The notes: generated by a model from the sequence alone, not told the origin. A stretch of DNA of 43,396 nt from Hormiphora californensis (GCA_020137815.1 WFME01000015.1:1-43396), one strand, 5' to 3'; shown: positions 5,599-35,337, counted from the stretch's first letter. Made by a program: numbers and translations.

Positions 5599-5639
5599 TA
5601 CCCTGACTCCAACACGGAGGTCGGAGGGTGGTGAGTTTG

Positions 5640-11048: not shown

Positions 11049-11056
11049 TTTCTACA

Positions 11057-11694: not shown

Positions 11695-11722
11695 TCTAAC
11701 TCACTTTCTCTCCCCCTTGTAG
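11695..11722 (+). promoter_or_regulatory. 3' splice acceptor (cis or trans) 10 nt upstream of the gene A ATG
   Basis: tctaac (branch-like) + tcactttctctcccccttgtAG|gacgtcgttcATG. Equivalent signals end at 14462 and 17361 and precede the right-arm copies. Confidence 0.6.
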
Positions 11723-11732
11723 GACGTCGTTC

Positions 11733-14078
11733 ATGACTGAACCACCTGCCAAACGCCGTGCTCGAGGCATCGAAAGCTATTGCGAGGATCTTCGTAGTCT
11801 ACTGACCAAGAGTCCAAACCTCTGGGACTTCAAATCAATTCAGAAAGTTCTTAACGACATTTTTCGACTAAACTGCAAGTCTTCGGAGATGATTCAGAAC
11901 CTAAAAGACTCCACTTTCCCTTACTCAATTCCCATCCTGATTTCCCGCAAGAACCTTCCTCCCCCTGTTATTAACAGTCTTCTTAAAATTTTGGTCGAAA
12001 TGAGTGTTGTGATGCGTGATGAAATTTACTGGAATGAATGCTACCGGTCTTTCGTCATCAACAATTTCCTGCCGCTTCCAGCCTGCTACCTACAATCCTT
12101 GAGGTTTCTTAACAGCACGAAATGTTCGAAGTTTCTTTACAACACTTACAGAAATTCTGTTCCGCTCTCAGCTGTTCAAGAAGTGTTTCACTATATTGAA
12201 TCAAAGATGTCATCTAAGAAAACTCTGCCTAAAAACGATAGACTAATCTATATTGAGTTGGCGAAAATGATAGGTAACTTTGGATATGATATTCTGAAAC
12301 GGGAAGAATTTGTGGCCTTGCTTAACTCTGTTGCTGAGTTAAACTCTAATCTCCATTGCCTTGATGGTGACATCTTGTTAAGTATTTCCAGACAGGTGCT
12401 CAGCTATATTGACAGGAGACATAATTTTGTGGGGAAGTTGAAGAAAACTCTTGGTGATTTGGTGGAGGAAATATGTACTTTATCCCCAGGTAACCTAGCC
12501 AAACTCTACACGTTCTCAAGCAATACAGCATTATGTACAATTGCTGAAGCGAAGAGAGACAAGGTCTTCGTCAGCGTCCTAAAAAAGAGTAGTGCTGAAA
12601 ACGGATCATATGATGTTATCAAGGCAGTTAAGAACATTCACCGGAAGGGATTTCCCATAGCCGAAAACATTTACCGGGCCCTGTCTTCTTTCATATCGAA
12701 ACCCGGTGAATTGGCGCATTCCTGGGCGAATGCTTCACGTGACGCCCTCTTTATCTTCCTTGAGAGAGGGAAAAAAAGTGTGTCTAAGGAATCCCAGAAG
12801 AAACGACTCAATGAGGTGATCATCAAATTCCTAAGAGCCCTTCGCGACTTAGATTGTGACACTGATCAATCAGTCAAGGAAGTGGTAGCCAAAGTTACGC
12901 AAAATGTCATTGGCTTGGCTGAGGACACAGTATTCCGTGTTGTTCCGATTGAAGATCATATCACTCTTGTTATGGACTTGTTTGCGAAGTATGGAACCTG
13001 GTTCACCAAAAAATATTCGGGTCTTAGCTCCAAAACATGTTTACTTTGGCAGATTTCAACGCACTCGTTATTGAAAAGTATTGGTATTCATGAGATATAC
13101 AAGTTACGACGGAAGCTTGATGTCAATAGGTATTGGGATTTTGGCGCTTTTCGTACGGAGGACTTTCTCTCAATGTTGCCCAATCTTCGTGAAACATCCC
13201 CGAACGATTATCTGGTTAAACTCTCCGAATTATTTCTGCAAAAAGCAATTCGTGATCGTAATCATCTCTGGGAAAATTCATTGGTTCATTCTGTCTGTGA
13301 AATCATTGATCTGCATGAGACTTATCCTCCAGAACTACTTCTCCGACTATTCCTCTGTCTTGTACGGTATTTCCAGAGTGTGTATAGCGAGTTTGGGTTT
13401 CCAAGTTGGAAACAGATTAGCTTCTTACATCCTTCTAAGAGATTACAAGTGGAAGGGATGGTGAGAATCCTTGGAGAGGAAGGGGCACCAGGGGTGGAGG
13501 TTACCGAACAAGATCTGTCATCTCCCATTCTGAAAAGCATGCTTGCTTCAAGTTTTGAGGAAGGTCGAACCCGAACCATGACCGTTCCCTCAGCCCCTCA
13601 GCGCATCTTGGAGGCCCTCAAGCTGATTCTGGGTGAGGATGGGAAGGGTGTTGAAGAACATGCAACACTGAAAGAGGTCTGGGAGTGGATGTTGCCGTGG
13701 GCAACCATGTACCAGGTTGACGGAGTGTTCAAATACCTTGTGGAGGCGATGAGTAGGGACAATCAGTCTAAAGAGTCTAAGCTGTCCGATGATTGGTTGG
13801 TTGAGTTTGCGATTCGGAGTAAGCATCCAGCGTGGTTGATGTTGGTATCTGACAGATTTGTCCTTGTTGAAACCCTAAATCTGCCACCTCGGGACCTAAT
13901 CTTCGCAATAACTGAACTGATCAACGCATTAAAGGACACTGACAACTATCTGGTCACAATTATCAGTTATTATTGCCGACAGCAACAGAGGACCCTCTCT
14001 GTTCCAAATATTTTCACAAATTATTATGAAAGTAAATATTTTGATGGTAACAATTATGATTATGGGGAGAGTGATTAA
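11733..14078 (+). CDS. Gene A: intronless 781-aa NLS + helical (ARM/HEAT-like) + BTB/POZ protein; chimera of right-arm genes C and D
   Basis: Long clean ORF; PPAKRRAR NLS; Leu-rich amphipathic helices. SSPILKSMLASSFEEGRTRTMTVPSAPQRILEALKLIL...WATMYQVDGVFKYL fits the BTB pattern (S.vF..Mf...F.E....I.l...f..ll / A..Y.v..L). Confidence 0.8.
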   Translation: MTEPPAKRRARGIESYCEDLRSLLTKSPNLWDFKSIQKVLNDIFRLNCKSSEMIQNLKDSTFPYSIPILISRKNLPPPVINSLLKILVEMSVVMRDEIYWNECYRSFVINNFLPLPACYLQSLRFLNSTKCSKFLYNTYRNSVPLSAVQEVFHYIESKMSSKKTLPKNDRLIYIELAKMIGNFGYDILKREEFVALLNSVAELNSNLHCLDGDILLSISRQVLSYIDRRHNFVGKLKKTLGDLVEEICTLSPGNLAKLYTFSSNTALCTIAEAKRDKVFVSVLKKSSAENGSYDVIKAVKNIHRKGFPIAENIYRALSSFISKPGELAHSWANASRDALFIFLERGKKSVSKESQKKRLNEVIIKFLRALRDLDCDTDQSVKEVVAKVTQNVIGLAEDTVFRVVPIEDHITLVMDLFAKYGTWFTKKYSGLSSKTCLLWQISTHSLLKSIGIHEIYKLRRKLDVNRYWDFGAFRTEDFLSMLPNLRETSPNDYLVKLSELFLQKAIRDRNHLWENSLVHSVCEIIDLHETYPPELLLRLFLCLVRYFQSVYSEFGFPSWKQISFLHPSKRLQVEGMVRILGEEGAPGVEVTEQDLSSPILKSMLASSFEEGRTRTMTVPSAPQRILEALKLILGEDGKGVEEHATLKEVWEWMLPWATMYQVDGVFKYLVEAMSRDNQSKESKLSDDWLVEFAIRSKHPAWLMLVSDRFVLVETLNLPPRDLIFAITELINALKDTDNYLVTIISYYCRQQQRTLSVPNIFTNYYESKYFDGNNYDYGESD

Positions 14079-14473
14079 AGTAAAGATAGTTACTCTGATG
14101 AAGATAATTATTAGGCATTTTTATTAAGTTAACTTTTTTCAAACTTCAAAGGCCGTCTTGTCGACATTTATTATTATTATCTTACAGCAAACTGTGTTGT
14201 TAGTCAATTGATCACATACCTGTACATGGAAAAAATTCCCAACTCGAACCTAATTCGAACCACCTATCACGAAGTCCATGGAAACGTAACTAAATCAGCC
14301 CGCATTCCTGGTATACCAGGGTTTTTAACTTTATTTGTCCTCAGATGAGAACAACATCCTGGTAAAATCCTTGTAAATCGAGGTCCGGCTGCATTCCCTT
14401 AGATCTCTAAACTCCTTAAAATCCCTAAACTCTTTCTGCTTCACTCTCTCTCTCCCCTTTAGGACGTCAATTC

Positions 14474-16870
14474 ATGACAGAGCCACCCGCCAAGCGTCAA
14501 GCTCGATGCATCGAAGACGATTGTGAGGATCTACGTGCTCTGCTGGTGAAGAGTCCAGACTTCTGGGATTACCAAGCGATAGAGAAAGTCCTCAATGAAA
14601 TTTCTCGACTTTACTGCAGAGCTTGGAAGAAGGTTGAGGTGCTCAAAAGTTCCACCTTCAGATACTCAATTCCCATCCTGATTTCTCGCAAGAACCTTCC
14701 CCCGCCTGTTATTAACAGCCTTCTTAAAATTTTGAATGTGCTGGCACACACCGAGTGGAAGGACTATTATCGGTCTTACGTCGTCGACAATTTCATACTC
14801 ATACCACAGTGCTACCTCCAATCCCTAAAGTTTCTGAACAACACGAATAGTCGGGAGGATCAAGTCAAGGTTCCACTATTTGCCGTTCAGAAAGTGTTTA
14901 ATTATCTGGAATCACGAGCCTTGGCTAAGAAGACTCTGACTAAAAATGATAAACTGATCTTTACGGAGGTGGCTAAGATGATGAAAGGTTTTTCGCTTGT
15001 AGGGGAGGATACATTTGAAGCATTTTTGACCCTGGTTAACTCCGTTGCCGAGTTTAACGCTAGACACCACTGTTTGGAAGGTAGCATAGTCTTCAAAATT
15101 GCTGAAACAGTTCGTACGTCTTTGAGCTTACATCTATGTACACCCTTGACGAGTGGTCTTGTTGAAAAGTTAAAGAAAACTCTCGGCGATTTGCTGGAGG
15201 AAATTTGTGTTTTGTGTCCGAATGACCTAGCTAAACTGTTCAAAGATGTCGATGGTGATGCCAAAATGGTGTTATACAAAACCGCTGAAGAAAGTAGAAA
15301 CAAAGCCTTCGTCACCGTTCTCAAATCTAAATGGGTTGATGATAGCTGTGTGGATGTTATTGAGGCAGTTCGAAAAATAAACCGGAAGGGACTGCCCATC
15401 GCTGAAGAGATTTACCTGGCACTGTCTGCTTTGATATCTACACCCCGTGATTGTCGGACAACCTGGGCGAAAACTTCACGTGATGCCCTCTATATCTTCC
15501 TGGAGAGGGGGAAACTAAGGGTGTCTGAGGAATCCCAAAAGAAACAACTTCACGAAGTCATCATCACATTTCTAGGAGTCCTTCGCGACTTGGATTGTAC
15601 CGGTTCTGTATATAATTCCTCTGAAAAAGTGAAGGAAGTTGCAGCGACAGTAACAAACGATGTAATAGGCTTGGCTGAGGACACAGTGTTCCGTGATTCT
15701 CTAAATAAAGATCACATCACTCTTGTCATGGACCTGTTTGTCAAATACGGTACCTGGTTCACCATGTCGTTTAGGGAATCATTTAACCCAAAACCATTCA
15801 TATCTTTCCAATGGTACATCAACACACATTCCCTGCTAAACAGTATTGGTCTTCGCAATATCCGCCAGCTACAGAAATCCTGTACTGACCATTTTTGGAA
15901 CTTTTTCGTTGCGATGGATGTTGCCAATGAAGACGAACTTCGGAAGTTGACTAACCTGCGTGAAAATTCTCCAGAAGCATATCTGGTGGAACTCTCAAAT
16001 ATTTTGATAGTAACAGGATTGAAAAGTGTGGCATTGGTCCCTTCCGTCTGTGAACAGTTAGAGTTCAGAGAGTCTGATCCTCCGGAATTACTTCTTCGAT
16101 TGTTCCTCTGTCTCGTCCGTTATCTCCAGGGCGTACAGACTAAATTTGAGGAACCGAGAGAGGTTAAGAATGAACCGCGAGAGGTTAAGAATGAACAAGG
16201 GAATGGGATGGTGAGAATCCTTGGAGAGGAAGGGGCACCAGGGGTGGAGGTTACCGAACAAGATCTGTCATCTCCCATTCTGAAAAGCATGCTTGCTTCA
16301 AGTTTTGAGGAAGGTCGAACCCGAACTATAACCGTTCCCTCAGCCCCTCAGCGTATCTTGGAGGCCCTCAAGCTGGTTCTTGGTGAGGGTGGAAAGGGTG
16401 CTAACGACCATGCAACACTGAAAGAGGTCTGGGAGTGGATGTTGCCGTGGGCTACAATGTACCAGGTAGACGGAGTGTTCAAATACCTTGTAACGGTGAT
16501 GTGTGAGAAGAAAGATTCTACGATGTCCGATGAATGGATGGTTGAGTTTGCGATTAGGAGCAAACACCCTGCGTGGCTAATGTTGATCTCTGATAGGTTT
16601 CTTCTTGTTGAAACCATAAACCTAACGCCTCAGGACCTCATCTCCGCAATAACTGATCTGGTCAACGCTTTAAATGACAAGGAGAACTACCTTGTTAACA
16701 TTATTAGTTATTTTTGCAGTCAGCAGTGTTCTGATTTGGGTGAACGTGAGCTTTTTCCTAATATTCGCCCAACTCCCACTGACAGACATTTCAAGGGTAA
16801 ATACTTTGATCAGCCTAATTGCTATTTTGGGGAAAGTGATGAAAGTGAAGATAATGACTCTGAAGAGTAG
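14474..16870 (+). CDS. Gene B: intronless 798-aa paralogue (NLS + helical region + BTB + acidic tail)
   Basis: Clean ORF colinear with gene A, with a near-identical BTB block and an acceptor ending at 14462. Confidence 0.8.
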   Translation: MTEPPAKRQARCIEDDCEDLRALLVKSPDFWDYQAIEKVLNEISRLYCRAWKKVEVLKSSTFRYSIPILISRKNLPPPVINSLLKILNVLAHTEWKDYYRSYVVDNFILIPQCYLQSLKFLNNTNSREDQVKVPLFAVQKVFNYLESRALAKKTLTKNDKLIFTEVAKMMKGFSLVGEDTFEAFLTLVNSVAEFNARHHCLEGSIVFKIAETVRTSLSLHLCTPLTSGLVEKLKKTLGDLLEEICVLCPNDLAKLFKDVDGDAKMVLYKTAEESRNKAFVTVLKSKWVDDSCVDVIEAVRKINRKGLPIAEEIYLALSALISTPRDCRTTWAKTSRDALYIFLERGKLRVSEESQKKQLHEVIITFLGVLRDLDCTGSVYNSSEKVKEVAATVTNDVIGLAEDTVFRDSLNKDHITLVMDLFVKYGTWFTMSFRESFNPKPFISFQWYINTHSLLNSIGLRNIRQLQKSCTDHFWNFFVAMDVANEDELRKLTNLRENSPEAYLVELSNILIVTGLKSVALVPSVCEQLEFRESDPPELLLRLFLCLVRYLQGVQTKFEEPREVKNEPREVKNEQGNGMVRILGEEGAPGVEVTEQDLSSPILKSMLASSFEEGRTRTITVPSAPQRILEALKLVLGEGGKGANDHATLKEVWEWMLPWATMYQVDGVFKYLVTVMCEKKDSTMSDEWMVEFAIRSKHPAWLMLISDRFLLVETINLTPQDLISAITDLVNALNDKENYLVNIISYFCSQQCSDLGERELFPNIRPTPTDRHFKGKYFDQPNCYFGESDESEDNDSEE

Positions 16871-17153
16871 AGGGGCTACTGGTATTAATAATATTATCAC
16901 TGATACCACAATAGAGAACAATCTTGTTTTTAAAACTAATTTTATTTTATAAATTTTATATTTCTTAGCCTGTATTGTCGTGTATGGACATTTTATTAAT
17001 TAATTTTACAGCAGTAAATTGAGTTTTTAATCAACTAACTGCTTAGAAGCACTAGCCAGCAAGCCTCCTGACCCCTCGCCAGTCGCCTACAACCCTGCAA
17101 ACCCCAAAACACAGCCCAACCCGTCCCGATGGCCGATATGACCCCAGATGAAA

Positions 17154-17212
17154 AGTAACAAGCCTATCAACTCGTGTAAATAGTATTTACACGAGTTGAT
17201 AGGCTTGTTACT
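17154..17212. repeat. 59-bp perfect palindrome (29-bp arms, 1-nt spacer)
   Basis: agtaacaagcctatcaactcgtgtaaata-g-tatttacacgagttgataggcttgttact. Confidence 0.9.
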
Positions 17213-17372
17213 AAATACATACATCAAACCCAGAACTCACTAGAACTAATTCCGAAGTCAGTATCCTCCAGCCCATTATAGTCCTTTATCGCTATCCCGA
17301 ACACCTTTTTATTACTCCTGAAACTCGTTTTACAACTTCACTCTCTCTCTCTCCCCTTTAGGACGTAAATTC

Positions 17373-17602
17373 ATGACAGAGCCACCTGCCAAGCGCCAAG
17401 CTCGATGCATCGAAGACGATTGTGAGGATCTACGTGCTCTGCTGGTGAAGAGTCCAGACTTCTGGGATTACCAAGCGATAGAGAAAGTCCTCAATGAAAT
17501 TTCTCGACTTTACTGCAGAGCTTGGAAGAAGGTTGAGGTGCTAAAAAGTTCCACCTTCAGATACTCAATTCCCATCCTGATTTCTCGCAAGAACCTTCCC
17601 CC
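17373..17602 (+). pseudogene. Truncated B-type paralogue (first ~77 codons)
   Basis: Protein identical to the gene B N-terminus up to SRKNLP, then joins directly to an antisense LINE fragment. Confidence 0.85.
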
Positions 17603-19490
17603 TTCTCGGTAATCCCTAAAAATGCCACTGGTGTGGCGTCCTCGTCCACCATATCACGCACTACCTCTAACTTCCAGGTACTCTCAGCTGATGGACAGAA
17701 ACTCCTAGCATTTAATAGGCGAAAGTTTGATACAGGGGCTGGGTTCCTGCTAGTCCCCAAGGATTGTGGGGTTTCTCCCCTGCTCCGTACTGCCGCTGCA
17801 GAAACGACTTTAAGTCCAAAAACTGGGTCATCACCGACTGTTGTATCTCGGCTTTCAGAACTTCCAGTTTCATCTCCAAAAAATCATGGGTCACCCTCTC
17901 GTCTGGCTGAGAGAACTTTTCAGCCGGGTTCTTGTTCCTGTTTCCTGGAGCTTGCTTTGGGCGTTTTGAGTTAAAATCTTCCGCCCGGTCTCCAGCTGCC
18001 TGGGAGTGTGCTTTCCTGGTCCTGTCCTGGACCGGTCGATCTTCTCCTCGCCCTTCTATACGATCCCGTTTTGTATGTAGAAGGTGATTCAGTGTGCACA
18101 TTTTATCATAGCACTCCCGTCTCACCTCAGATCCCTTGCATAGGGGAGGGTGGTAGAACTTACACGAACCACCTTTCACGCATCCAAAGCGTTTCGATGC
18201 CCCATTATAGTTACAAAACCTCTTGCAGAGTCTCGGGTGGAGTTTCGGACATGACCTCCCCTCTACTTCCTTGGTTCCATTTCGTCCATAGCGGCACTTC
18301 CGGTTGAGAAAGTGCTTACACGTTCTCTGGGGTCAGTTCCAGAGTTTTTCCATCATCCTCTGGTTCGTCCTTTTTCTCATCATCGGGCTTTATCTCTGGC
18401 GTTTCAACAACAGTGATGTCGGTCTTAGGCTCATTTTTCTCCCAGCAATACGAGCAAACCCACACTGAGCCTTTACGGTTCCCCTTAATTGACTGCTTGC
18501 ATGAGTGGGCCCTTGTCCGCAAAGAAAACAAGATAAAGGGGGTGTGGTACCAAGTTTAACCCTGTAATTTTCACCACAATCTTGACAGCCGATAGGAAAC
18601 AACCCCTCAATACGTAGGACGATCTTATCCGCCAACTCCGTCATTTCTCGGCTTTTCCCATCCCGCCCGACAAGTAACACGTTTAGAGCCTTACAGACCG
18701 GACCCAGTTCCTCCACCTTCTTACTTGCAATGGAGTCCACATTAACGGTATGATCGGCATGGTAGTCGTAGGCCTCAATCACTACCTTCCCCTTCGCTCC
18801 GACAGCATTTTTCAGCTCCGCCAGTACATCTTTGACGGTCTGGTCATTGGTCATTTGGCTGCGTCTACAAGGGTTGAGGAGGGGGTTGCCGCTCCTCAAA
18901 TTAATTTGTTTAAAGTAGTGTTGAAAAGTTTGAAGTTGTAGTTGCTTTTTCCATTTTCGTTTCATGTACAAATCTATCAACTCTCTATTCACAGGATATC
19001 ACATCACAATGTTGCCAAAAGGGATTTGAAGTCTTATCGTTCACTATCATACTCTGCAAGACACAAATACACCATTTTTCAAGACCAAGCTCAACATTAC
19101 CTGATTAAGACCTCATCTTTTCCATGACGGGCACACCTTTTGACCTTTCAAGTTCCTTATTGAGACTGGTGTAGTAATTTTTTACGTTGAGATCTATGGC
19201 CTCTGTTGCGCTATATTTTTGTAGACTTTTGTAAGATTGCATCTTGTGGATATTCAGTGTTCGGTTTATGGTTTTGATTAACTTATTAACTATTTATTAA
19301 TTATATTTGGCAGTTTATGCTGTTTTTTAATTAACTTATTAACTATGTATTTAATTATATGACAACGAGGACTTTCGGAAGGACATTGATACGAAGATGC
19401 GCTTTAGAAAGCGAGTTTTGATCGAAAGGACGCTTTAGTATTTAAGTCGATCGAGATAAACACTTTTCGCTCAAAAGCGATTTATAAATG
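17603..19490 (-). mobile_element. CR1-like LINE family 2, 3'-truncated: 5'UTR, degraded ORF1 (ATG ~18854; PHD + CCCH) and start of the ORF2 endonuclease
   Basis: CQDC..CFLCGQG.H..WVCSYC (PHD); CKFYHPPLC..C..C..H; ORF1 ends QTFAY* at 17712; ORF2 begins NFRLLNARSFCPSAESTWKL..FLGITE. The 5' boundary is approximate. Confidence 0.8.
17877..17883 (-). promoter_or_regulatory. Putative -1 ribosomal frameshift heptamer U UUU UUG
   Basis: ORF1 frame gaT TTT TTG. The -1 frame opens immediately after a TGA (17886-17884) and runs without stop or ATG into the endonuclease. A stem aaactgg/ccagttt begins 6 nt downstream. Confidence 0.55.
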
Positions 19491-19535
19491 TTAAATGTTA
19501 TTGTTATTGTTATTATTGTTCCTGATAAGATAAAG

Positions 19536-22500
19536 GGTAAGTCGGAAGAACCTGTCCGTTCCTCTCATGAGCGCTCATGAGTGTATCATGAGTGTGTCAT
19601 GAGTGTATCATTGAGTGTAATCACTAGCGCTCAGAGACGTTGTTTTTTTTAGGTGTTTCAACGTCTCCTGAGCGCTCATGAGTGTATCATGATGTATCAT
19701 GAGTGTCTCATGAAAGCGCTCATGAGTGGCTCATGAGACCTGCTCAGAGCGCTCATGAGACATAATGTCTCATCCCCTCTCTGTTCAATGTCTCATGACG
19801 CTCATGAGACATTTTGAACCTACATGTGCTCATTAGTGTATCAGGAGACATGTCCATGAGACATATTCTCCTGAGACGTTAGGGTTTGGTTGGGGTTTAG
19901 GTTGGGCTGGGTTGGGCTTTCCTTTGTCTAGTACCGTAGAGGTAGGGCTGGTCCCAGCCTATAATGGGTCAACCCTAACCCTATCCCTATGGTCCCTAAG
20001 AAACCCCCCTAAAGGATACCCTAACCCTAACCCAACTCTAACCCTAACGTCTCATGAGACATATGTCTCATGGACATGTCTCATGATACACTATGAGTCA
20101 CATGTCGGTCAACACGTCTCATGAGCCTCATGAGACGTTTGAAACACCTAAACGTCCTCATGAGCTGTCCATGTTACACTCATGATACACTCATGACACA
20201 CTCATGAATACACTCATGAGCGCTCATGAGAGAACGGACAGGTTTCTTCCGACTTACCAGATAAAGTAACATACAAACCCCAAACTCCTATGTCCCTCAC
20301 TCGGGTTTTTGGGGGGGGTAAAGGGGTGACCTTTAGCGCTTGAAAATTTGGAGGTTCGAGAACTTAAAGGTCCCCAAACTACTATGTCCCCTTGCTGCCC
20401 GCGACCGGATTTTAGACGGCCATAGCTCCACCCCCTGATAAGATGAGACTTGAATTTTTTGTATGGAGATCAATCGAGTTGCTTTGTACAAAACAAATTT
20501 CAAGTCTCATCTCATCAATGGAGTGAGTAGGATCGTGGGAAATTGCCAAAACCCTAGTGAGGGACATAGTATTTTGGGTGTACTTAGCAAGATCTTCGTA
20601 CCTCCAATTTCAAGTCTCTAATCTCTTCGGAACCGATTTGGTTAAGTCGGAAGAACCTTCCGTTCCTCTCATGAGCGCTCATGAGTGTATCATGGATTGT
20701 TGTCATGAGTGTATCATGATTGTTCATGAGCGCTCATGAGACGTTTTTTAGTTTTCACAACGTCTCATGAGCGCTCAGAGTGTATCCATGAGTGTAATCA
20801 TGATTTCTCATTGCCGCTCATGAGTGCTCATGACCTTGCTCATGGAAACACGCTCCTGAGACCTTGTCTCATTCCCATCTCTGTTTCAATGTCTCATGAG
20901 CGCTCATGAGACATTTTACCTACATTGTGCTCATGAGTGTATCATGAGACATGTCCATGAGACATATGTCTCATGAGACTTTAGGGTTTGGGGGGGGTTT
21001 TTTTTTTTTTGGTTTATGGTTGTGGCTAGGGTTCGGGCTTGCCTTTATGTCTAGGACCCGTATAGGGTAGGGCAGGTCCAAGCCTATAATGGGTCACCCT
21101 AACCCTATCCCTCTGGGTTCACTAGACCTAAGGATAACCCTAAACCCTAACCACTCTAACCTAACGTCTCATGAGACATATGTCTCATGATACTGTCTCA
21201 TGATACCTCATGAGCACATGTAGGTCAAAACGTCTCATGAGCGCTCCATGAGACTTGACACACCTAAAACGAAAAACGGCTCATGAGCGGTCATGATACA
21301 CTCATGATACACTCATGACACACTCATGATACACTCATGAGCGCTCATGAGAGGAACGGACAGTTCTTCCGACTTACCAGATAAAGTACACCCCAAACTA
21401 CTATGTCCTCCCTCGGGTTTTTGTCCATGGGGACCTTTAGAGACTTGAAATTTGGAGGTTCGGCAGAACTTAAAGGTCCCCCCCAACTACTATGTCCCTG
21501 CTGCACGCGACCGGATTTAGACGGCCATCCTCCACCCCCTGATAAAATGAACTTGAATTTTGTTTGTAGGGAGATCATATCGAGTTCTTTGTACCAAACA
21601 AATTTCTAGTCTCTATCGCTCAGAGTTGAGTATGATCGTGGGAATTTCACAAAACCGATGAGGGACCATAGTAGTTTGGGGTGAACTTTAGCAAATCTTC
21701 GTACCCTCCAATTTCAAGTCTCTACTTCTCTTCAGGAACCGGATTTGGTAAGTCGAAGACCTGTCCGTTCCTCTCATAGCGCTTCATATTGTATCATGAG
21801 CTGTCATGAGCGCCATGATACACTCATGACACCTCATGATACACTCATGAGCGCTCATGAGACGTTGAAACACCTAAAACGTCTCATGAGCGCTCATGAA
21901 CACTCATGATACACTCATGACACACTCATGATACACTCATGAGCGCTCATGAGAGGAACGGACAGGTTCCTTCCGACTTACCAAATCCGTTTCCTGAAGA
22001 GATAGAGACTTGAAATTTGGAGTTACGAAGATCTTGCTAAAGTCACACCCAAACTACTATGTCCCTCACTCGGTTTTTGTGAAATTTCCACGCCATAACT
22101 CAACTCCCTGATGAGATAGAGACTTGAAATTTGTTTTGTACAAAGAACTCGATATGATCTCCCTACAAAACAATTTCAAGTCTCTATCTTATCAGGGGGT
22201 GGAGCTATGGCCGTCTAAAATCCGGTCGCGTGCAGCAGGGACATAGTAGTTTTGGGGGACCTTTAAGTTCTTCCGAACCTCCAAATTTCAAGTCTCTAAA
22301 GGTCCCCCTTTACAAACCCGAGTGAGGGACATAGTAGTTTGGGTGTACTTTTACTGGTAAGTCGGAAGAACCTGTCCGTTCCTCTCATGAGCGCTCATGA
22401 GTGTATCATGAGTGTGTCATGAGTGTATCATGATGGTATCATGACCGCTCAGGACGTTTTTAGTGTTTCAACGTCTCATGAGCGCTCATGAGAGACGTTT

Positions 22501-24160: not shown

Positions 24161-24189
24161 CTTTATCTTATCAGGAACAATAATAACAA

Positions 24190-26059: not shown

Positions 26060-26287
26060 AGGGGGAGGTTCTTGCGAGAAATCAGGATGGGAATTGAGTA
26101 TCTGAAGGTGGAACTTTTTAGCACCTCAACCTTCTTCCAAGCTCTGCAGTAAAGTCGAGAAATTCATTGAGGACTTTCTCTATCGCTTGGTAATCCCAGA
26201 AGTCTGGACTCTTCACCAGCAGAGCACGTAGATCCTCACAATCGTCTTCGATGCATCGACTTGGCGCTTGGCAGGGGGCTCTGTCAT
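26060..26287 (-). pseudogene. Mirror copy of the truncated B-type paralogue
   Basis: Reverse complement of 17373-17602. Confidence 0.8.
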
Positions 26288-26783
26288 GAATTTACGTCCT
26301 AAGGGGAGAGAGAGAGTGAAGTTGTAAAACGAGTTTCAGGATTAATAAAGGTGTTCGGGATAGCGATAAAGGACTATAATAATGGGCTGGAGGATACTGA
26401 CTTCGGAATTAGTTCTAGTGAGTTCTGGGTTTGATGTATTTATTTAGTAACAAGCATATATAATCAACTCGTGTAATTATTTACACGAGTTGATAGGCTT
26501 GTTACTTTTCATCTGGGGTCATATCGGCCATCGGGACGGGTTGGGCTGTGTTTTGGGGTTTGCAGGGTTGTAGGCGACTGGCGAGGGTCAGGAGGCTTGC
26601 TGGCTAGTGCTTCTAAGCAGTTAGTTGATTAAAAACTCAATTTACTGCTGTAAAATTAATTAATAAAATGTCCATACACGACATACGGCTAAATTAAAAT
26701 ATATTTATAAATAAAATTAGTTTTAAAAACAAGATTGTCTCTATTGTGGTATCAGTGATATATTATTAATACCAGTAGCCCCT

Positions 26784-29170
26784 CTACTCTTCAAGTCATT
26801 ATCTTCACTTTCATCACTTTCCCCAAAATAGCAATTAGGCTGATCAAAGTATTTACCCTTGAAATGTCTGTCAGTGGGAGTTGGGCGAATATTAGGAAAA
26901 AGCTCACGTTCACCCAAATCAGAACACTGCTGACTGCAAAATAACTAATAAGTTAACAAGTTAGTTCTCCTTGTCATTTAAAGCGTTGACCAGATCAGTT
27001 ATTGCGGAGATGAGGTCCTGAGGCGTTAGTTTTATGGTTTCACAAGAAGAAACCTATCAGAGATCAACATTAGCCACGCAGGGTGTTTGCTCCTAATCGC
27101 AAACTCAACCATCCATTCATCGGACATCGTAGAACTTTTCTTCTCACACATCACCGTTACAAGGTATTTGAACACTCCGTCTACCTGGTACATTGTAGCC
27201 CACGGCAACATCCACTCCCAGACCTCTTTCAGTGTTGCATGTTCGTTAGCACCCTTTCCACCCTCACCAAGAACCAGCTGAGGGGCCTCCAAGATACGCT
27301 GAGGGGCTGAGGGAACGGTTATAGTTCGGGTTCGACCTTCCTCAAAACTTGAAGCAAGCATGCTTTTCAGAATGGGAGATGAACAGATCTGTTCGGTAAC
27401 CTCCACCCCCTGGTGCCCCTTCCTCTCCAAGGATTCTCACCATCCCATTCCCTTGTTCATTCTTAACCTCTCGCGGTTCATTCTTAACCTCTCTCGGTTC
27501 CTCAAATTTAGTCTGTACGCCCTGGAGGTAACGGACGAGACAGAGGAACAATCGAAGAAGTAATTCCGGAGGATCAGACTCTCTGAGCTCTAACTGCTTA
27601 CAGACGGAAGGAAGCATTGCCTCAGTATTCCATCCCGCAACTATTAACATATCCGAGAGTTCCGCCAGATATTCTTCTGGAGAATTTTTACGGAGCTTAG
27701 TCATGCTCCGAAGTACGTTTACATTGTCAACATCCATTGCAACGAAAAAGTTCAAAAGACTCATGTGGTCAGTTCGGGATTTCCGTAGTTTGTGGATATT
27801 GCAAAGACTAATACCGCTAATCAGGGGATGTGTGTTGATGTACCAATGGTAAGATTGGCCAGAGTTATATAAATCTCCAAACGACATGGTGAACCAGGTA
27901 CCGTATTTGACAAACAGGTCCATGACAAGAGTGATGTGATCTTTATTTAGAGAATCACGGAACACTGTGTCCTCAGCCAAGCCTATTACATCGTTTGTTA
28001 CTGTCGCTGCAACTTCCTTCACTTTTTCAGAGGAATTATATACAGAACCGGTACAATCCAAGTCGCGAAGGACTTCTAGAATGTGATGATGACTTCTTGA
28101 AGTTGTTTCTTTTGGGATTCATCAGACACCTTAGTTTCCCCTCTCCAGAGATTATAGAGGGCATCACGTGAGTTTTCGCCCAGGTTGTCCGACAATCACG
28201 GGGTGTAGATATCAAAGCAGACAGTGCGAGGTAAATCTCTTCAGCGATGGGCAGTCCCTTCCGGTTTATTTTTCGAAGTGCCTCAATAACATACACACAT
28301 CTATCATCAACCCATTTAGATTTGAGAACGGTGATGAAGGCTTTGTTTCTACTTTCTTCAGCGGTTTTGTATAACACCATTTTGGCATCACCTGCATCGG
28401 CATCTACGAACAGTTTAGCTAGATTATTTGGACACAAAACACATATCTCCTCCACCAAATCACCGAAAGTTTTCTTTAACTTTTCAACGAGACCACTCGT
28501 CAAGGACATATTTTTATGCATGCTTAAAGAACTATGAACTGTTTTAGTAATTTTTAAGACTATGCTACCTTCCAAACAGTGGTGTCTAGCGTTAAACTCG
28601 GCAACAGAGTTAACCAGGGTCAAAAATGCTTCAAATGTATCCTCCCCTACAAGCGAAAAACCTCTCATCATCTTAGCCACCTCCGTAAAGATCAGTTTAT
28701 CATTTTTAGTCAGAGTGTTCTTAGCCAACGCTCGTGAGTCCAGATAATTTAACACTTTCTGAACGGCAAATAGTGGAACCTTGACTTGATGACTATATGA
28801 CGTTTTGTTCAGAAACTTTAGGGATTGGAGGTAGCACTGTGGTATGTGTATGAAATTGTCGACGACGTAAGATCGATAATAGTCGTTCCACTCAGTGTGT
28901 GCCAGCACATTCAAAATTTTAAGAAGGCTGTTAATAACAGGCGGGGGAAGGTTCTCGCGAGAAATCAGGATGGGAATTGATTATCTAAGGTGGAACTTTT
29001 GAGCACCTCAACCTTCTTCCAAGCTCTGCAGTAAAGTCGAGAAATTTCATTGAGGCTTTCTCTATCGCTTGGTAATCCCAGAAGTCTGGACTCTTCACCA
29101 GCAGAGCACGTAGATCCTCACAATCGTCTTCGATGCATCGAGCTTGACGCTTGGCGGGTGGCTCTGTCAT
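26784..29170 (-). CDS. Gene E: divergent allele or paralogue at the gene B position; frameshifts are probably sequencing errors
   Basis: ORF pieces 28985..29170, 28036..28914, 27342..28061 and 27032..27430 tile gene B. Same ends and flanks as B, but many in-frame substitutions internally. Confidence 0.75.
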
Positions 29171-29564
29171 GAATTGACGTCCTAAGGGGAGAGAGGAGAG
29201 GAGTGAAGCAGAAAGAGTTTAGGGATTTTAAGGAGTTTAGAGATCTAAGGGAATGCAGCCGGACCTCGTTTACAAGGATTTTACCAGGATGTTGTTCTCA
29301 TCTGAGGACAAATAAGTTAAAAACCCTGGTATACCAGGAATGCGGGCTGATTAGTTACGTTTTCCATGGACTTCGTGATAGGTGGTTCGAATTAGGTTCG
29401 AGTTGGGAATTTTTTCCATGTACAGGTATGTGATCAATTGACTAACAACACAGTTTGCTGTAAGATAATAATAATAAATGTCGACAAGACGGCCTTTGAA
29501 GTTTGAAAAAGTTAACTTAATAAAATGCCTAATAATTATCTTCATCAGAGTAACTATCTTTACT

Positions 29565-31882
29565 TTAATCACTCTCCCCATAATCATAATTGTTACCATC
29601 AAAATATTAACTTTCATAATATTTGTGAAAATATTTGGAACAAGAGGGTCCTCTGTTGCTGTCGGCAATAATAACTGATAATTGTGACCAGATAGTTGTC
29701 AGTGTCCTTTAATGCGTTGATCAGTTCAGTTATTGCGAAATTAGGTCCCGAGGTGGCAGATTTAGGGTTTCAACAAGGACAAATCTGTCAATACCAACAT
29801 CAACCACGCTGGATGCTTACTCCGAATCGCAAACTCAACCAACCAATCATCGGCAGCTTAGACTCTTTAGACTGATTGTCCCTACTCATCGCCTCCACAA
29901 GGTATTTGAACACTCCGTCAACCTGGTACATGGTTGCCCACGGCAACATCCACTCCAGACCTCTTTCAGTTTTGCATTTTCTTCAACCCCCTTCCCATCC
30001 TCACCCAGAATCAGCTTGAGGGCCTCCAAGATGCGCTGAGGGGCGAGGGAACGGTCATGGTTCGGGTTCGACCTTCCTCAAAACTTGAAGCAAGCATGCT
30101 TTCTCAGATGGGAGATACAGATCTTGTTCGGTAACCTCCACCCCTGGTGCCCCTTCCTCTCCAAGGATTCTCACCATCCCTTCCCTTGTAATCTCTTAGA
30201 AGGATGTAAGAAGCTAATCTGTTTCCAACTTGGAAACCCAAACTCGCTATACAACTCTGGAAATACCGTACAAGACGAGGAAGTCGGAGAAGTATTTTCT
30301 GGAGGATAAGTCTCATGCAGATCAATGATTTCACAGACAGAATGAACCAATGAATTTCCCAGAGATGATTACGATCACGAATTGCTTTTTGCAGAAATAA
30401 TTCGGAGAGTTTAACCAGATATCGTTCGGGGATGTTTCACGAAGATTGGGCAACATTGAGAGAAAGTCCTCCGTACGAAAAGCGCCAAAATCCCAATACC
30501 TATTGACATCAAGCTTCCGTCGTAACTTGTATATCTCATGAATACCAATACTTTTCAATAACGAGTGCGTTGAAATCTGCCAAAGTAAACATGTTTTGGA
30601 GCTAAGACCCGAATATTTTTGGTGACCAGGTTCCATACTTCGCAAACAAGTCCATAACAAGAGTGATATGATCTTCAATCGGAACAACACGGAATACTGT
30701 GTCCTCAGCCAAGCCAATGACATTTTGCGTAACTTTGGCTACCACTTCCTTGACTGATTGATCAGTGTCACAAGCCAAGTCGCGAAGAGCTCTTAGAAAT
30801 TTGATGATCACTTCACTTAGTAGTTTCTTCTGGGATTCCTTAGACACCCTTAGTTTCCCTCTCTCAAGGAAGATGTAGAGGGCATCACGTGAAGCTATCA
30901 CCCAGTTCTCCATAGGTTCACGGGGTTCCGATATAAAAGAAGACAGAGCCTGGTAAATCTCTTCGGCTATGGGCAGTCCCTTCCGGTTGATGTTCCGAAC
31001 CGCTTCAATAACCTTGTCAGATATCTTATCAGCACTTCTCTCATTAAGAACGCTGGCGAAGGCTTTGTTTCTTCTCGCTTCCGCAGTTTTGTACAAGGTC
31101 ATTTTGGCATCCCCGCCAAGGTATACTAGTATGTAGAGTTCGGCTAGCTTATCTGGAGATAAGATACATATTTCCTCAACCAAAACACCAAGATTTTCCT
31201 TCAATTTCCCCACATGAATACCTCTTATGTTAATACAGCTGAGCACCTCTGTGGTAATCTGAAACACGATGTTACGATCCAAGCAATGTAGTTTAGAGTT
31301 TAACTCGGAGACAGAAATTAGCAGGGCCACAAATTCGTCCCTTCCGTTAAAACCTCCATCGTAGTTTGCAATAAATTTCGCCAACTCAATAAAGATCAGT
31401 CTATCGTTTTTAGGCAGAGTTTTCTTAGACATCTTTAATTCAAGATAGTGCAAAACTTTTTGAACGGGTGAGAGCTGAACAGAAAATCCACTAGTACCGT
31501 TAACGGCGTTAAGAAACCTCAAGGATTGAAGGTAACAGGCTGGAAGTGGCAAAATGTTGTGAACAACGAACGATTGATAGCATTCACTCCAAAATATTTT
31601 ATCATAAGGCTTCATCTCAACCAAAATCTTAAGAAGGTTGTTAATAACAGGGGGAGGAAGGTTCTTGCAGCGCATCATGATGGGAAATGAGTAAGGGAAA
31701 GAGGATTCTTTTAGATCCTTAATCATCTCCAAAGATTTGCAGTATAGTCGAAAAATGTCGTGAAGAACTTTTTGAATTGATTTGTAGTCCCAGAGGTTTG
31801 GACTCTTGGCCAGTTGGCTACGAAGATCTTCGCAATAGCTTTCGATGTCTCGAGCACGGCGTTTGGCAGGTGGTTCAGTCAT
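29565..31882 (-). CDS. Gene D: paralogue with a unique N-terminal half and a C-terminal half equal to gene A
   Basis: Clean ORF 30602..31882 (MTEPPAKRRARDIESYCEDLRSQL...); downstream pieces (KYSGLSSKTCLLWQISTH...) match gene A with indel errors. Confidence 0.8.
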
Positions 31883-32394
31883 GAACGACGTCCTACAAGG
31901 GGGAGAGAAAGTGACTTTAGAATGTGTCGACTGTCGATTCTAGGGCGTAGATCTACATCTACGTTCGAGGGGATAGAAGGTGGGGTGTTATACCCTCATG
32001 GGTAGTGGGTTGGAAAATGAAAGGATGCAGATGTCATGGGGGTTTTGAGGTCCTGCAATCTACTTACTAGATTATCACGACTAGTGAAATAGAAAACCCA
32101 GTACAGGTTTGATTGATTAAAAACACGCCTTATTGTAACAAAAACTGAAACAAGATTATTTGCACTATGTAATCATAGTGCTGTATTTCCCTACTCATGT
32201 TCATGTTCCCAGTCAGACTGATCACACTGACAGGTAATCTGACCGCTTCAATTGGACATTGAAACGTGAGATGGGCTAATTTAGCCGCTGTTTGTGCTCT
32301 AGGTATACTAAGTAGTTACTACATAATATATAGTAGTTACTACATATCTATGATATTGTGATCTAATATCATATATGCGGACAAACGGTGGCAC

Positions 32395-32571
32395 ACCCTA
32401 GTAAAAATTGCGAGACCTTAACGGCGTTTTATGAGAACGTTGAGCCCGTCCTCGAGCGTGCGGCTCGTGGACGGGCTCGTTAAGGGCTGCACTGCATCAC
32501 GTAATGAACTCATCCTGTAGGATAAACGAGATCGTTGCACGGCTCAACGTTCTCGCAATTTTTAGTAGGGT
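32395..32571. mobile_element. Small MITE-like element in the C-D intergenic region
   Basis: accctagtaaaaattgcgaga ... tctcgcaatttttagtagggt (21-bp inverted repeat, one mismatch). Confidence 0.6.
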
Positions 32572-32864
32572 AGTTATAGGATGCGGAATAATGAACAATT
32601 AGCTGCAACAAACACCACTCGAGGTAATGCTCGAGTTACTATTTCAAATCTGAGGTATTTAAACACGTGCTAAAATCTGGGTGGGTGCTTCGCATCCACA
32701 CGGGCAGGGGGATATAAAAAGTGAGTATACATAATTGATAAAAATATCCCATGCTAGTAAAAAATAATCAGTATCAGAGCTCCTTACGTGTCTAAATTCC
32801 ACCAGACTCGCAATTTATAAGTACTACCAATAATCATCAGAAGGACTTTGGAACCCTCGCACTG

Positions 32865-35337
32865 TCACCAGAAGGACTCGTCGTCAGAGTCACTATCATG
32901 TTCACTGTCATCACTGGCTCGATATTCATAATTGTCACGATTAAAATATTTGGATCCGCTAAAATGACAGTCTTCTGGGAGAATATCTGGTACCAACGTA
33001 TGGACACGCACACCCTCATAGTACTGTTGTTGGCAAAAATAACTGATAATGTTCGGCAGATAGTCATAACCAGTGTCCTTTAATGCATTGATCAGTTCAG
33101 TTATCGCGAGTATTAGGTCCCGAGGTGGCAGATTTAGGGTTTCAACAAGAAGAAATCTGTCAGATACCAACATCAACCACGCTGGATGCTTACTCCGAAT
33201 CGCAAACTCAATTAACCAATCATCGGACAGCTTAGAATCTTTAGACTGATTGTCCCTACTCATCGCCTGCACAAGATATTTGAACACTCCGTCAACCTGG
33301 TACATGGTTGCCCACGGCAACAACCACTCCCAGACCTCTTTCAGAGTCGCATACTCGTCAGCACCCTTTCCACCCTCACCCAGAATCAGCTTGAGGGCCT
33401 CCAAGATGCGCTGAGGGGCTGATGGAACGGTTATAGTTCGGGTTCGACCTTCCTCAAAACTTGAAGCCAACATGCTTTTCAGAATGGGAGATGACAGATC
33501 TTGTTCGGTAACCTCCACCCCTGGTGCCCCTTCCTCTCCAAGGATTCTCACCATCCCCTCCACTTGTAATCGCTTGGAAGGATGTAAGTGGTTAATCTGT
33601 TTCTCCACTATTGATTGCCCAAATTCTGTCTGTGCACTCTGGAAATACCGTACAAGACAGAGGAATAGTCGGAGAAGTAGCTCTGGAGGATCTGTCTCAT
33701 GCAGATCAATGATTTCACAGACAGAATGAACGAATGACTTAGAACCTTCTTCTTTAATTGGATAGTATGAAATACCAGCACCACAATAATAAGATACTGA
33801 TTTTGCCAGAAAGAATTCGGAAAGTTTCACCAGATAATCGTTCGGGGATGTTTCACGAAGATTGGACAGCATTGAGAGAATTGCCTCTTTACGACGTGTT
33901 CTCACAACGCCAAATTCCCCAAATTTCCTGAGATCAAGATTCTCTTCTATATTGCAAATCTCGCGAGTACCAACACCTTTTAGCACTGGGTGGGTGTAAA
34001 TATGCCAAAGTAACGATTGGCATGAAATAAATGACCCAAGACTCGATGTTGTTTGATAATGTGGTTTAAAATATTTGGTGACCCAGGTTCCATACTTTGC
34101 GAACAAATCCATGACAAGAGTGATTTGATCGTCAGTCAGAAAAACACGGAATACTGTGTCCTCAGCCAAGCCAATGACATCTCGCGTAACTTTGGCTACC
34201 ACTTCCTTGACTGATTGATCAGTGTCACAATCTAAGTCGCGAAGGGCTCTTAGGAATTTGATGATCACCTCATTGAGTCGTTTCTTCTGGGATTCCTTAG
34301 ACACACTTTTTTTTCCCTCTCTCAAGGAAGATAAAGAGGGCGTCACGTGAAGCATTCGCCCAGGAATGCGCCAATTCACCGGGTTTCGATATGAAAGAAG
34401 ACAGGGCCCGGTAAATGTTTTCGGCTATGGGAAATCCCTTCCGGTGAATGTTCTTAACTGCCTTGATAACATCATATGATCCGTTTTCAGCACTACTCTT
34501 TTTTAGGACGCTGACGAAGACCTTGTCTCTCTTCGCTTCAGCATTGTACTAATGCTGTATTGCTTGAGAACGTGTAGAGTTTGGCTAGTTACCTGGGGAT
34601 AAAGTACATATTTCCTCCACCAAATCACCAAGAGTTTTCTTCAACTTCCCCACAAATATATTGTCTCCTGTCAATAGCTGAGCACCTGTCTGGAAATACT
34701 TAACAAGATGTCACCATCAAGGCAATGGAGATTAGAGTTTAACTCAGCAACAGAGTTAAGCAAGGCCACAAATTCTTCCCGTTTCAGAATATCATATCCA
34801 AGTTACCTATCATTTTCCGCCCTCAATATAGATTAGTCTATCGTTTTTAGCAGAGTTTTCTTAGATGACATCTTTGATTCAATATAGTGAAACACTTCTT
34901 GAACAGCTGAGAGCGGAACAGAATTTCTGTAAGTGTTTTAAAGAAACTTCGAACATTTCGTGCTGTTAAGAAACCTCAAGGATTGTAGGTGCAGGCTGGA
35001 AGCGGCAGGAAATTGTTGATGACGAAAGACCGGTAGCATTCATTCCAGTAAATTTCATCACGCATCACAACCACTCATTTCGACCAAAATTTTAAGAAGA
35101 CTGTTAATACAGGGGGAGGAAGGTTCTTGCGGGAAATCAGGATGGGAATTGGTAAGGGAAAGTGGAGTCTTTTAGGTTCTGAATCATCTCCGAAACTTGC
35201 ATTTAGTCGAAAATGTCGTTAAGAACTTTCTGAATTGATTTGAGTCCCAGAGGTTTGGACTCTTGGTCGTAACTACGAAGATCCTCGCAATAGCTTTCGA
35301 TGCCTCGAGCACGGCGTTTGGCAGGTGGTTCAGTCAT
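32865..35337 (-). CDS. Gene C: paralogue with an N-terminal half equal to gene A and a unique C-terminal half including the BTB
   Basis: 35337-34230 matches gene A codons 1-~390 with indels. ORF 32865..34379 continues RDVIGLAEDTVFRVFLTDDQ...BTB...DSDDESFW cleanly. Confidence 0.8.

What the first reader, a model, noticed from the sequence alone, without database searches (positions are those of the whole stretch)
11733..35337. Tandem family of intronless NLS-helical repeat-BTB genes with a hypervariable N-terminal region and constant BTB: candidate diversifying CUL3-adaptor (immune-like) system
Seen: five distinct ~780-820 aa coding sequences (A, B, C, D, E) plus a truncated copy. All start MTEPPAKR(R/Q)AR and have a long helical region where conserved blocks (KNLPPPVIN, CYLQSL.FLN, VIGLAEDTVFR, ITLVMDLF.KYGTW, PPELLLRLFLCLVRY) alternate with poorly alignable patches and indels. 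An almost invariant block follows (SSPILKSMLASSFEEGRTRT..VPSAPQRILEALKL..WATMYQVDGVFKYL), then an acidic tail. Established: BTB domains recruit Cullin-3; ARM+BTB is the architecture of the CUL3 adaptor ARMC5 and plant ARIA/ABAP1; a conserved cullin-binding module with a fast-evolving substrate module is the signature of nematode and plant MATH-BTB and F-box expansions proposed to target foreign proteins. Inference: a lineage-specific nuclear ubiquitin-ligase adaptor repertoire diversified by recombination, possibly against viral or transposon proteins or for self/non-self recognition.
Basis: partly seen in the sequence, partly recalled or inferred. Interest (0 to 1): 0.85.

Follow-up and report, generated by a model that had tools for sequence, protein, structure and literature searches.

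The report
Comb-jelly armadillo-BTB adaptor gene array
A comb jelly carries a tandem cluster of genes for a predicted armadillo-repeat protein with a likely cullin-3-binding BTB end, whose copies differ in patches yet share near-identical DNA over the likely cullin-binding stretch; the window likely shows two versions of one locus mis-joined back to back, and an immune role remains untested.

Summary
The genes are real, but there are not five loci. The window is one ~40-kb inverted repeat around a self-complementary satellite. The right arm repeats the left arm with single-base errors that short-read contigs contradict. It most likely shows two versions of one locus: A-B-truncated and E-D-C-truncated. 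A is E's 5' half joined to D's 3' half; B and C look like alleles that differ in two patches. Named homologues come only from the ctenophore Pleurobrachia bachei (at least 10 copies, including orthologues of E and of B/C). Residues 1-431 fold as armadillo repeats. A BTB domain at 576-680 is likely (language-model neighbours, a weak in-register profile match, phi-x-E motif) but has no Pfam hit or confident fold. Its front half is identical even at synonymous sites (0/24 and 1/25 four-fold sites differ, against about 45% elsewhere), which points to gene conversion. Regional dN/dS is below 1, and a site-model signal of positive selection vanishes on masking. Best reading: an ARMC5-like CUL3-adaptor family evolving by birth-death and recombination; immune role unproven. 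The scan noted a similar BTB-SPRY array in another genome, but not this family.

The parts
11733..14078 (+). Gene A, 781 aa; mosaic of the E 5' half and the D 3' half
   Evidence: ORF; follows E at 221/228 and D at 183/200 informative sites
12854..12900 (+). 47-nt block identical in E and D where A switches from E to D (E 34184-34230, D 30727-30773)
   Evidence: last E-type site 12853, first D-type site 12901
14474..16870 (+). Gene B, 798 aa: basic N-terminal motif (likely NLS), armadillo repeats, variable middle, likely BTB, 3-box-like helices, acidic tail
   Evidence: ORF; models; fold searches
14474..15766 (+). Armadillo-repeat region of B (residues 1-431)
   Evidence: pLDDT mostly 82-92 over residues 11-340; Foldseek best E 1.6e-5 to designed armadillo proteins; VIA Z 17.1 (7n6g_1D, rmsd 5.7, 357 aligned) and 16.1 (Armc8, rmsd 4.4, 313 aligned)
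15773..16064 (+). Second divergent tract between B and C (variable middle region); the first dense tract is about 15094-15254
   Evidence: 34 and 53 substitutions per 400 columns against 0-8 in the other windows from 12865 to 19600; difference list
16199..16513 (+). Likely BTB domain of B (residues 576-680), with F611-E612-E613 at 16304-16312 in the phi-x-E position
   Evidence: profile of 22 independently fetched BTB domains matches best at B599-679, 6.1 bits, above all 500 shuffles (max 5.1); Atlas neighbours; no Pfam hit
16205..16326 (+). 122-nt run identical in A (13455-13576) and B; likely gene-conversion tract over the front half of the BTB
   Evidence: four-fold sites 0/24 (B vs E) and 1/25 (B vs D) in codons 576-620
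17373..17612 (+). 5'-only copy (77 residues identical to B, stop after codon 79), broken at about 17604 by a repeated element
   Evidence: contigs from all four runs run off at 17604 (table 7)
19535..24161 (.). TCATGA-based self-complementary satellite at the centre of symmetry
   Evidence: 27 TCATGA per kb against 0.4-0.6 elsewhere
26061..26287 (-). Mirror of the 5'-only copy
26784..29170 (-). Gene C, positional twin (likely allele) of B; frameshifted in this assembly
   Evidence: C-specific tract 27564-27908 matched with 0 differences by contigs of runs X2 and X5
29565..31882 (-). Gene D; its own 5' half is in frame, its 3' half equals A 3' apart from indel errors
   Evidence: contigs with 0-1 differences over 30932-31399 and 31474-31878
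31883..32864 (-). 982-nt E-D spacer, absent from the left arm
   Evidence: contigs with 0 differences in X2, X3 and X5 (records 5, 6, 12, 21)
32865..35337 (-). Gene E; its own 3' half is in frame, its 5' half equals A 5' apart from indel errors; whole-length orthologue in P. bachei
   Evidence: P0003 residues 224-936 are 81/78/80% identical across both halves
11705..11722 (+). Pyrimidine tract and TAG, a 3' splice-site-like sequence 10 nt before the ATG; present before every copy
3552..43395 (.). Whole inverted repeat; likely two versions of one locus joined at the satellite

Best explanation
These genes encode a ctenophore family of predicted armadillo-repeat proteins with a likely BTB domain that would act, like ARMC5, as nuclear substrate adaptors for a cullin-3 ubiquitin ligase, and the family likely evolves by tandem duplication, unequal crossover and gene conversion that keeps the likely cullin-binding half of the BTB uniform while the target-binding parts diverge. 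Shown: the ORFs, the mirror structure, A as an E/D mosaic, the synonymous-site identity in codons 576-620, P. bachei orthologues of E and of B/C. Predicted: armadillo fold for 1-431 (confident), BTB at 576-680 (weak). Inferred: nuclear import by the PAKR(R/Q)AR motif; CUL3 docking through F611-x-E613 and the following helix pair; substrate capture by the armadillo groove and the 426-575 region; different targets for the E, D and B/C classes; and that the window is one E-D-C-type locus seen as two haplotypes joined at the satellite, with C, D and E intact in the animal. What drives the divergence is open: conflict with foreign proteins about 35%, relaxed constraint plus recombination the rest.
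For: Armadillo fold. Atlas neighbours of full-length B: the best three are BTB clusters at 0.91, then ARMC5 clusters at 0.87-0.88, and 10 of the ten best named hits share a family or clan; residues 1-560 alone lose these hits. A BTB profile aligns in the expected register at 599-679 and beats 500 of 500 shuffles; hhalign's single alignment is in the same register, P 0.027. Both models give strand-strand-helix then helices at 580-678. phi-x-E is the main CUL3 contact in KLHL3 (PMC3616122, passages). ARMC5 binds CUL3 through its C-terminal BTB and substrate through its ARM and N-terminal parts (PMC9226510, passages). Conversion: four-fold sites differ at 8/47 in the BTB core vs 73/168 elsewhere (B vs E, p 0.001) and 7/46 vs 78/162 (B vs D, p 4e-5). 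Purifying selection in every region, dN/dS 0.17-0.82. At least 10 BTB-bearing copies in P. bachei models. Assembly reading: the outer flanks differ at only 10 isolated substitutions in 8168 columns (8 transversions) but at 124 single-base gaps; contigs match the left arm with 0 gaps and the mirrored right arm with 4-14 gaps.
Against: No Pfam BTB, ARM_6 or ARM_ARMC5 hit in any family member scanned and no sequence relative in the PDB. pLDDT over the BTB is only 28-44 in the alignment model. The profile score is low, and one homologue (P0013) scores 7.4 bits in its armadillo region, so such scores can be spurious. Atlas shared features were 158-163 of 256, below the 170 usual for the same family. 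The canonical His-Lys-x-Val-Leu stretch of the fetched BTBs has no counterpart here. Whether A exists in the animal cannot be settled: the 47-nt shared block is longer than the contigs can bridge.
Confidence: 0.6

Rival explanations
1. Conflict-driven receptor repertoire: the armadillo and middle regions are under diversifying or balancing selection to catch viral, transposon or non-self nuclear proteins.
For: Unmasked site model: M2a vs M1a LRT 13.7, p 0.001, 7% of sites at omega 4.2. B and C are 70% identical over 426-575, no closer than either is to the P. bachei orthologue (68%, 74%), although their flanks are almost identical. A third B-like version with 15 differences in 306 nt occurs in run X3. 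Of 30 variant codons listed from short-read contigs, 21 are non-synonymous, including all 4 in helix 203-222 (from 36 of the 40 rows shown, 44 rows not shown).
Against: The signal vanishes when 3 codons around gaps are masked (p 0.99), with site-rate variation (p 0.14), and in the masked 3-sequence test (p 0.93). All regional dN/dS values are below 1. 21 of 30 is not above the neutral share (about 3.4 non-synonymous sites per synonymous site). Variability is higher in loops than in helices in every region and falls with hydrophobicity. Only four sequences were available.
Confidence: 0.3
2. Redundant copies of a housekeeping ARMC5-like adaptor drifting under relaxed constraint; the patches come from conversion among old paralogues and all copies share a target such as RNA polymerase II.
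For: About 40-48% of sites in 1-575 fit omega=1; indels fall mostly outside the BTB (8.5 and 18.7 gap spans per 100 aa vs 1.9); truncated copies are present; the architecture resembles ARMC5.
Against: The E and B/C classes are kept as orthologues across two species and in the same order in P0003; the real differences between classes are all in frame; there is no sequence link to ARMC5.
Confidence: 0.3
3. The C-terminal block is not a working CUL3-binding BTB but a degenerate or unrelated alpha/beta domain, and the proteins are nuclear scaffolds.
For: No Pfam or PDB sequence hit; low pLDDT; its DNA uniformity could come from conversion alone.
Against: In-register profile match with phi-x-E; Atlas BTB neighbours depend on this region; the block is also nearly invariant in P. 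bachei proteins.
Confidence: 0.15
4. The inverted repeat is a true genomic palindrome whose arms are kept alike by arm-to-arm conversion, so A, B, C, D and E all coexist on one chromosome.
For: The flanks are nearly identical between arms; B and C differ by real, in-frame changes, so the arms are not one molecule read twice.
Against: Errors are confined to right-arm parts that have a twin on the left; the centre is a self-complementary satellite. Weak depth hint only: the E/A 5' contigs are no deeper than the E-D spacer in X2 (187 vs 225), X3 (43 vs 45) or X5 (152 vs 148), whereas a fixed palindrome would double them.
Confidence: 0.15
5. The genes are cargo of a transposon or an endogenous virus.
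For: Intron-free coding regions; LINE-like elements on both sides.
Against: No relative among viral contigs (0 of 15 pattern matches confirmed) or metagenome contigs (0 of 13 and 0 of 185); splice-acceptor-like sites before each ATG; orthologous classes in P. bachei gene models.
Confidence: 0.05

Closest known systems
ARMC5 (animal ARM-BTB adaptor of CUL3-RBX1 for RNA polymerase II; PMC9226510 and PMC11758996, passages read)
   Same: N-terminal armadillo repeats, a long linker region, a C-terminal BTB followed by about 120 residues; Atlas score 0.87-0.88.
   Different: No detectable sequence similarity; shorter; multicopy and tandem, whereas ARMC5 is recalled as single-copy; substrate unknown.
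Plant ARM-BTB proteins (At1g04390-type ARM_6+BTB; ARIA/ABAP1)
   Same: Best Atlas neighbours, 0.91 and 0.82-0.85; same domain order.
   Different: Shared features below the same-family level; no Pfam ARM_6 or Arm hit; different kingdom.
Nematode and plant MATH-BTB and F-box expansions (Thomas 2006, not read; as summarised in passages of PMC4334554 and PMC1866355)
   Same: Birth-death tandem family with a conserved cullin-binding module and a variable substrate module.
   Different: Substrate module is an armadillo solenoid, not MATH; about ten copies seen, not hundreds; positive selection not robustly shown; the conserved module is homogenised at the DNA level; their immune role is itself called indirect in PMC1866355.

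Membership tests
BTB/POZ domain (PF00651) | Match to the Pfam BTB model at its cut-off | tested here: not met
   no hit on A, B, E or isolated BTB stretches at E up to 1-10; the fetched reference BTBs do hit
BTB/POZ domain (PF00651) | Remote profile similarity in the right register | tested here: inconclusive
   6.1 bits at B599-679, above 500/500 shuffles, but a 7.4-bit off-target match in P0013; hhalign P 0.027, probability 1.8%
BTB/POZ domain (PF00651) | BTB fold | tested here: inconclusive
   secondary-structure order fits in both models but pLDDT is low; fold searches were filled by the armadillo part
CUL3-binding BTB adaptors | phi-x-E motif between the helix and the next strand | tested here: met
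   F611-E612-E613 aligns with the F-x-E column of the BTB profile and is kept in the copies aligned; motif definition from PMC3616122
CUL3-binding BTB adaptors | 3-box helical hairpin after the BTB | tested here: inconclusive
   helices 666-678 and 686-696 at pLDDT 40-53
CUL3-binding BTB adaptors | Physical binding to CUL3 | not testable with these tools
   no CUL3 sequence was available to the complex predictor
Armadillo-repeat proteins | Armadillo superhelix | tested here: met
   Foldseek 89 matches at E<=0.001, the listed ones nearly all armadillo proteins; VIA Z 14-17 to armadillo proteins
ARMC5 | Sequence match to ARM_ARMC5 (PF24768) | tested here: not met
   no hit
ARMC5 | Orthology by phylogeny, and RPB1 binding | not testable with these tools
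   no alignable ARMC5 sequence was retrieved
MATH-BTB/F-box-type diversifying adaptors | Lineage-specific birth-death expansion | tested here: met
   at least 10 BTB-bearing copies in P. bachei models; truncated copies; only P. bachei among named hits
MATH-BTB/F-box-type diversifying adaptors | Positive selection on the substrate domain but not the cullin domain | tested here: inconclusive
   p 0.001 unmasked, p 0.14-0.99 under controls, four sequences
MATH-BTB/F-box-type diversifying adaptors | MATH or F-box domain | tested here: not met
   no Pfam hit; the N-terminal region is all helical
MATH-BTB/F-box-type diversifying adaptors | Targets foreign proteins | not testable with these tools
   no expression or interaction data

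The most novel reading that the evidence does not exclude
Pleurobrachia has turned an ARMC5-like adaptor into a nuclear immune repertoire: gene conversion keeps one CUL3-docking cassette interchangeable across paralogues, while crossover and balancing selection keep deeply divergent armadillo and middle-region alleles (B, C and a third form) segregating at one locus to degrade viral or transposon proteins. This would be an intracellular variable-receptor system in the sister group of other animals.
Probability: 0.22. Interest if true: 0.82.

Novelty: new variant of a known kind. Interest (0 to 1): 0.5.

Why it matters
Fast-evolving cullin adaptors are described for nematodes and plants, with MATH or F-box-linked target domains. 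An armadillo-based version in a ctenophore would widen that strategy to the earliest-branching animals, and gives a small, testable family: about three genes per locus, one shared docking cassette, segregating patch alleles. Four paper searches naming ctenophores or ARMC5 evolution listed no paper on this family, judged from listings only; subscription journals are mostly outside that library. The finding also warns that this contig is probably mis-joined and its frameshifts are errors.

Tried and rejected
No whole genome was held, so no genome-wide copy count. Pfam on family members: nothing at cut-off for the ARM-BTB part. PDB sequence searches: nothing significant. The single-sequence model was poor (pLDDT 41) and its fold searches were uninformative; no BTB protein was listed in any fold search, which does not exclude one, since the armadillo part filled the lists. 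A homodimer prediction for residues 533-752 gave no answer. No RNA holder listed, and no contig of the one RNA-guess run was laid; this says nothing on expression. Metagenome and viral contig scans found no relative. A search with the most distant homologue P0011 found nothing longer. Rfam found nothing. An RNA structure or overlapping frame as cause of the constant BTB DNA: the 122-nt run folds no better than shuffles (z +0.6) and other frames carry stops; another DNA-level constraint is not excluded. 'C, D, E are pseudogenes': rejected, since the indels are confined to mirrored parts and contradicted by contigs. 'One molecule read twice': rejected, since B/C and E/D carry real in-frame differences found in short-read contigs. 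Earlier findings by sequence and by place: none.


Full report
Observation. Two unbroken ORFs of the family lie on the plus strand, A (11733-14078) and B (14474-16870), followed by a 5'-only copy at 17373. Three further copies lie on the minus strand, E (ATG 35337), D (31882) and C (29170), followed by another 5'-only copy at 26287. C, D and E are broken into several frames in this sequence.

The window is a mirror. Self-comparison shows one inverted repeat filling nearly the whole window, centred on a satellite built on the palindromic hexamer TCATGA (27 per kb against 0.4-0.6 elsewhere). In the outer flanks the arms differ at 10 isolated substitutions in 8168 columns, 8 of them transversions, but at 124 single-base gaps, 103 of them on the right arm. 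A 943-aa reverse transcriptase ORF on the left has no open frame over 108 codons in its mirror. Within the genes, 1-2 nt indels occur only where the right arm has a twin on the left: 18 in E 5' and 15 small indels in D 3'. E 3' against A and D 5' against A differ only by net in-frame indels. Short-read contigs of three samples match the left arm without gaps and the mirrored right arm with 4-14 gaps, and they match the right-arm-only parts (E-D spacer, D 5', E 3', the C tract) with 0-1 differences (only 24 and 32 pieces of about 3000 and 3900 were shown). So the frameshifts are assembly errors, and E, D and C are real genes. I infer that two versions of one locus were joined through the self-complementary satellite (about 75%); a true palindrome is the rival (15%). 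Contig depth is a weak hint only: E/A 5' pieces are no deeper than the E-D spacer in X2, X3 or X5.

What the five sequences are. A follows E at 221 of 228 informative sites before 12870 and D at 183 of 200 after; the switch lies in a 47-nt block shared by E and D. P. bachei has a protein matching E in both halves (81, 78 and 80%), so E is the older form and A is derived, either by unequal crossover in this animal or by collapse in assembly; I cannot tell which. B and C occupy mirrored positions and are nearly identical apart from two tracts (34 and 53 substitutions per 400 columns). The C tract is matched exactly in runs X2 and X5. A B-type tract is present in X1 (same sample as X2; one difference among the rows shown), and a third form with 15 differences in X3. 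They behave like alleles, though paralogues elsewhere are not excluded. The locus is thus about three genes and a truncated copy.

Relatives. The word search gave 2 hits among 7993 scored candidates, the full HMMER search 9 hits among 1.84 billion proteins, and the C-terminal profile 6 among 7996. Of the 10 looked up, 7 are Pleurobrachia bachei gene models and 3 are unnamed fragments. Splitting the fused models gives at least 10 copies with the BTB core, including an E orthologue followed by a B/C orthologue in one model. The most distant fragment is 29-35% identical over the N-terminus. The organism is therefore a ctenophore close to P. bachei (inference). No relative was confirmed in viral or metagenome contigs.

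Protein anatomy. With a 13-row alignment, residues 11-340 fold at pLDDT mostly 82-92, and the region 1-431 matches armadillo proteins: Foldseek best E 1.6e-5, VIA Z 17.1 (rmsd 5.7, 357 aligned), Armc8 16.1, importin alpha 16.1, plakophilin 15.0. Residues 426-575 are low-confidence and variable. For 576-680 there is no Pfam or PDB sequence hit and no confident fold. Three weaker lines agree on a BTB. Language-model neighbours of the full protein are BTB and ARMC5-type clusters (0.91-0.87), and they vanish when only residues 1-560 of A are used. A profile of 22 BTB domains fetched independently (18 chlamydial, 4 giant-virus) aligns best at B599-679, 6.1 bits, above all 500 local shuffles; but it also gives 7.4 bits off target in one homologue. 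Both models give the expected order of strands and helices. F611-E612-E613 falls in the phi-x-E position, which in KLHL3 supplies the most buried CUL3 contact (PMC3616122, passages). I put the BTB at about 85%. The PAKR(R/Q)AR start resembles a classical nuclear localisation signal (recalled, untested). Each ATG is preceded by a pyrimidine tract and TAG; ctenophores use spliced-leader trans-splicing, with operons not reported (PMC7986045, passages), so this is either a trans-splice site or the end of a 5' UTR intron.

Evolution. Variation peaks at 124-250, 426-575 and the tail, and is higher in loops than helices. All regional dN/dS values that could be computed are below 1: 0.36 for B vs A over 1-575, 0.79 for B vs C, 0.51 and 0.71 for E vs D, 0.17-0.60 for the C-terminal domains. 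My own site model on four sequences (B, C, D, E; A left out as a mosaic) favoured a class at omega 4.2 (p 0.001), but this fell to p 0.99 with gap edges masked and p 0.14 with site-rate variation. Positive selection is therefore not shown, and power is low. The constant BTB is constant in DNA: A and B share a 122-nt identical run; four-fold sites in codons 576-620 differ at 0 of 24 (B vs E) and 1 of 25 (B vs D), against 73 of 168 and 78 of 162 outside the core. E vs D shows no such contrast (5/46 vs 32/201, p 0.5), and C vs E is borderline (p 0.07). Gene conversion over the likely CUL3-contact half is the simplest cause; a DNA-level constraint is not excluded.

How it most likely works. Each protein would enter the nucleus, bind a target through the armadillo groove and middle region, dock on CUL3-RBX1 through the BTB and following helices, and have the target ubiquitinated, as ARMC5 does for RNA polymerase II (PMC9226510 and PMC11758996, passages). 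Conversion would be tolerated where all copies bind the same cullin and removed where copies bind different targets, giving the pattern seen. The persistence of E and B/C classes across two species suggests distinct roles. [quoted passage not shown]

Novelty and verdict. It works like ARMC5 by architecture but fails the sequence test for membership; it resembles MATH-BTB expansions in pattern but has a different target domain and no robust selection signal. Searches for papers on ctenophore BTB or armadillo-BTB expansions listed nothing on this family (listings only; supplements not consulted). The scan noted an analogous BTB-SPRY array in another genome, which I did not test. Verdict: new variant of a known kind, interest 0.5; the immune-repertoire reading has probability about 0.22.

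Noticed in passing
window 6265-9096 (-) and 9497-10066 (-): Intact 943-aa endonuclease plus reverse transcriptase ORF of a LINE-like element, with an upstream ORF giving weak CCCH zinc-finger hits; its mirror at about 37900-40700 is shredded by indels.
   Followed up: partly
window 19535-24161: Satellite of about 11-nt units around TCATGA, with higher-order blocks of about 1.3 kb in both orientations and a short GTTAGG run at 22565-22597.
   Followed up: partly
window 17604-19500: High-depth repeated element that breaks the 5'-only copy; minus-strand ORFs 17712-18101 and 18390-18965, the second with a Cys/His pattern like a zinc finger; no Pfam hit at cut-off.
   Followed up: partly
window 10181-10461 and 11305-11585: Short repeats with very high contig depth just upstream of gene A/E; perhaps small non-autonomous elements.
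   Followed up: no
window 16151-16196: 21-nt tandem duplication (EPREVKN twice) shared by B and C just before the BTB.
   Followed up: no
window 1-298 / 1074-1371 and 1373-1979: A 298-nt direct repeat at 96.6% and a tandem pair of about 305 nt at 93.5% outside the inverted repeat.
   Followed up: no
P0001, P0003, P0004, P0013: P. bachei gene models fuse two or three tandem copies, or fuse a copy to a short-chain dehydrogenase; likely annotation artefacts that hide the family.
   Followed up: partly
window 15080-15140 (B residues 203-222): The most variable armadillo helix (0.65); contigs of X1, X3 and X5 show a form with four non-synonymous differences from B here.
   Followed up: partly
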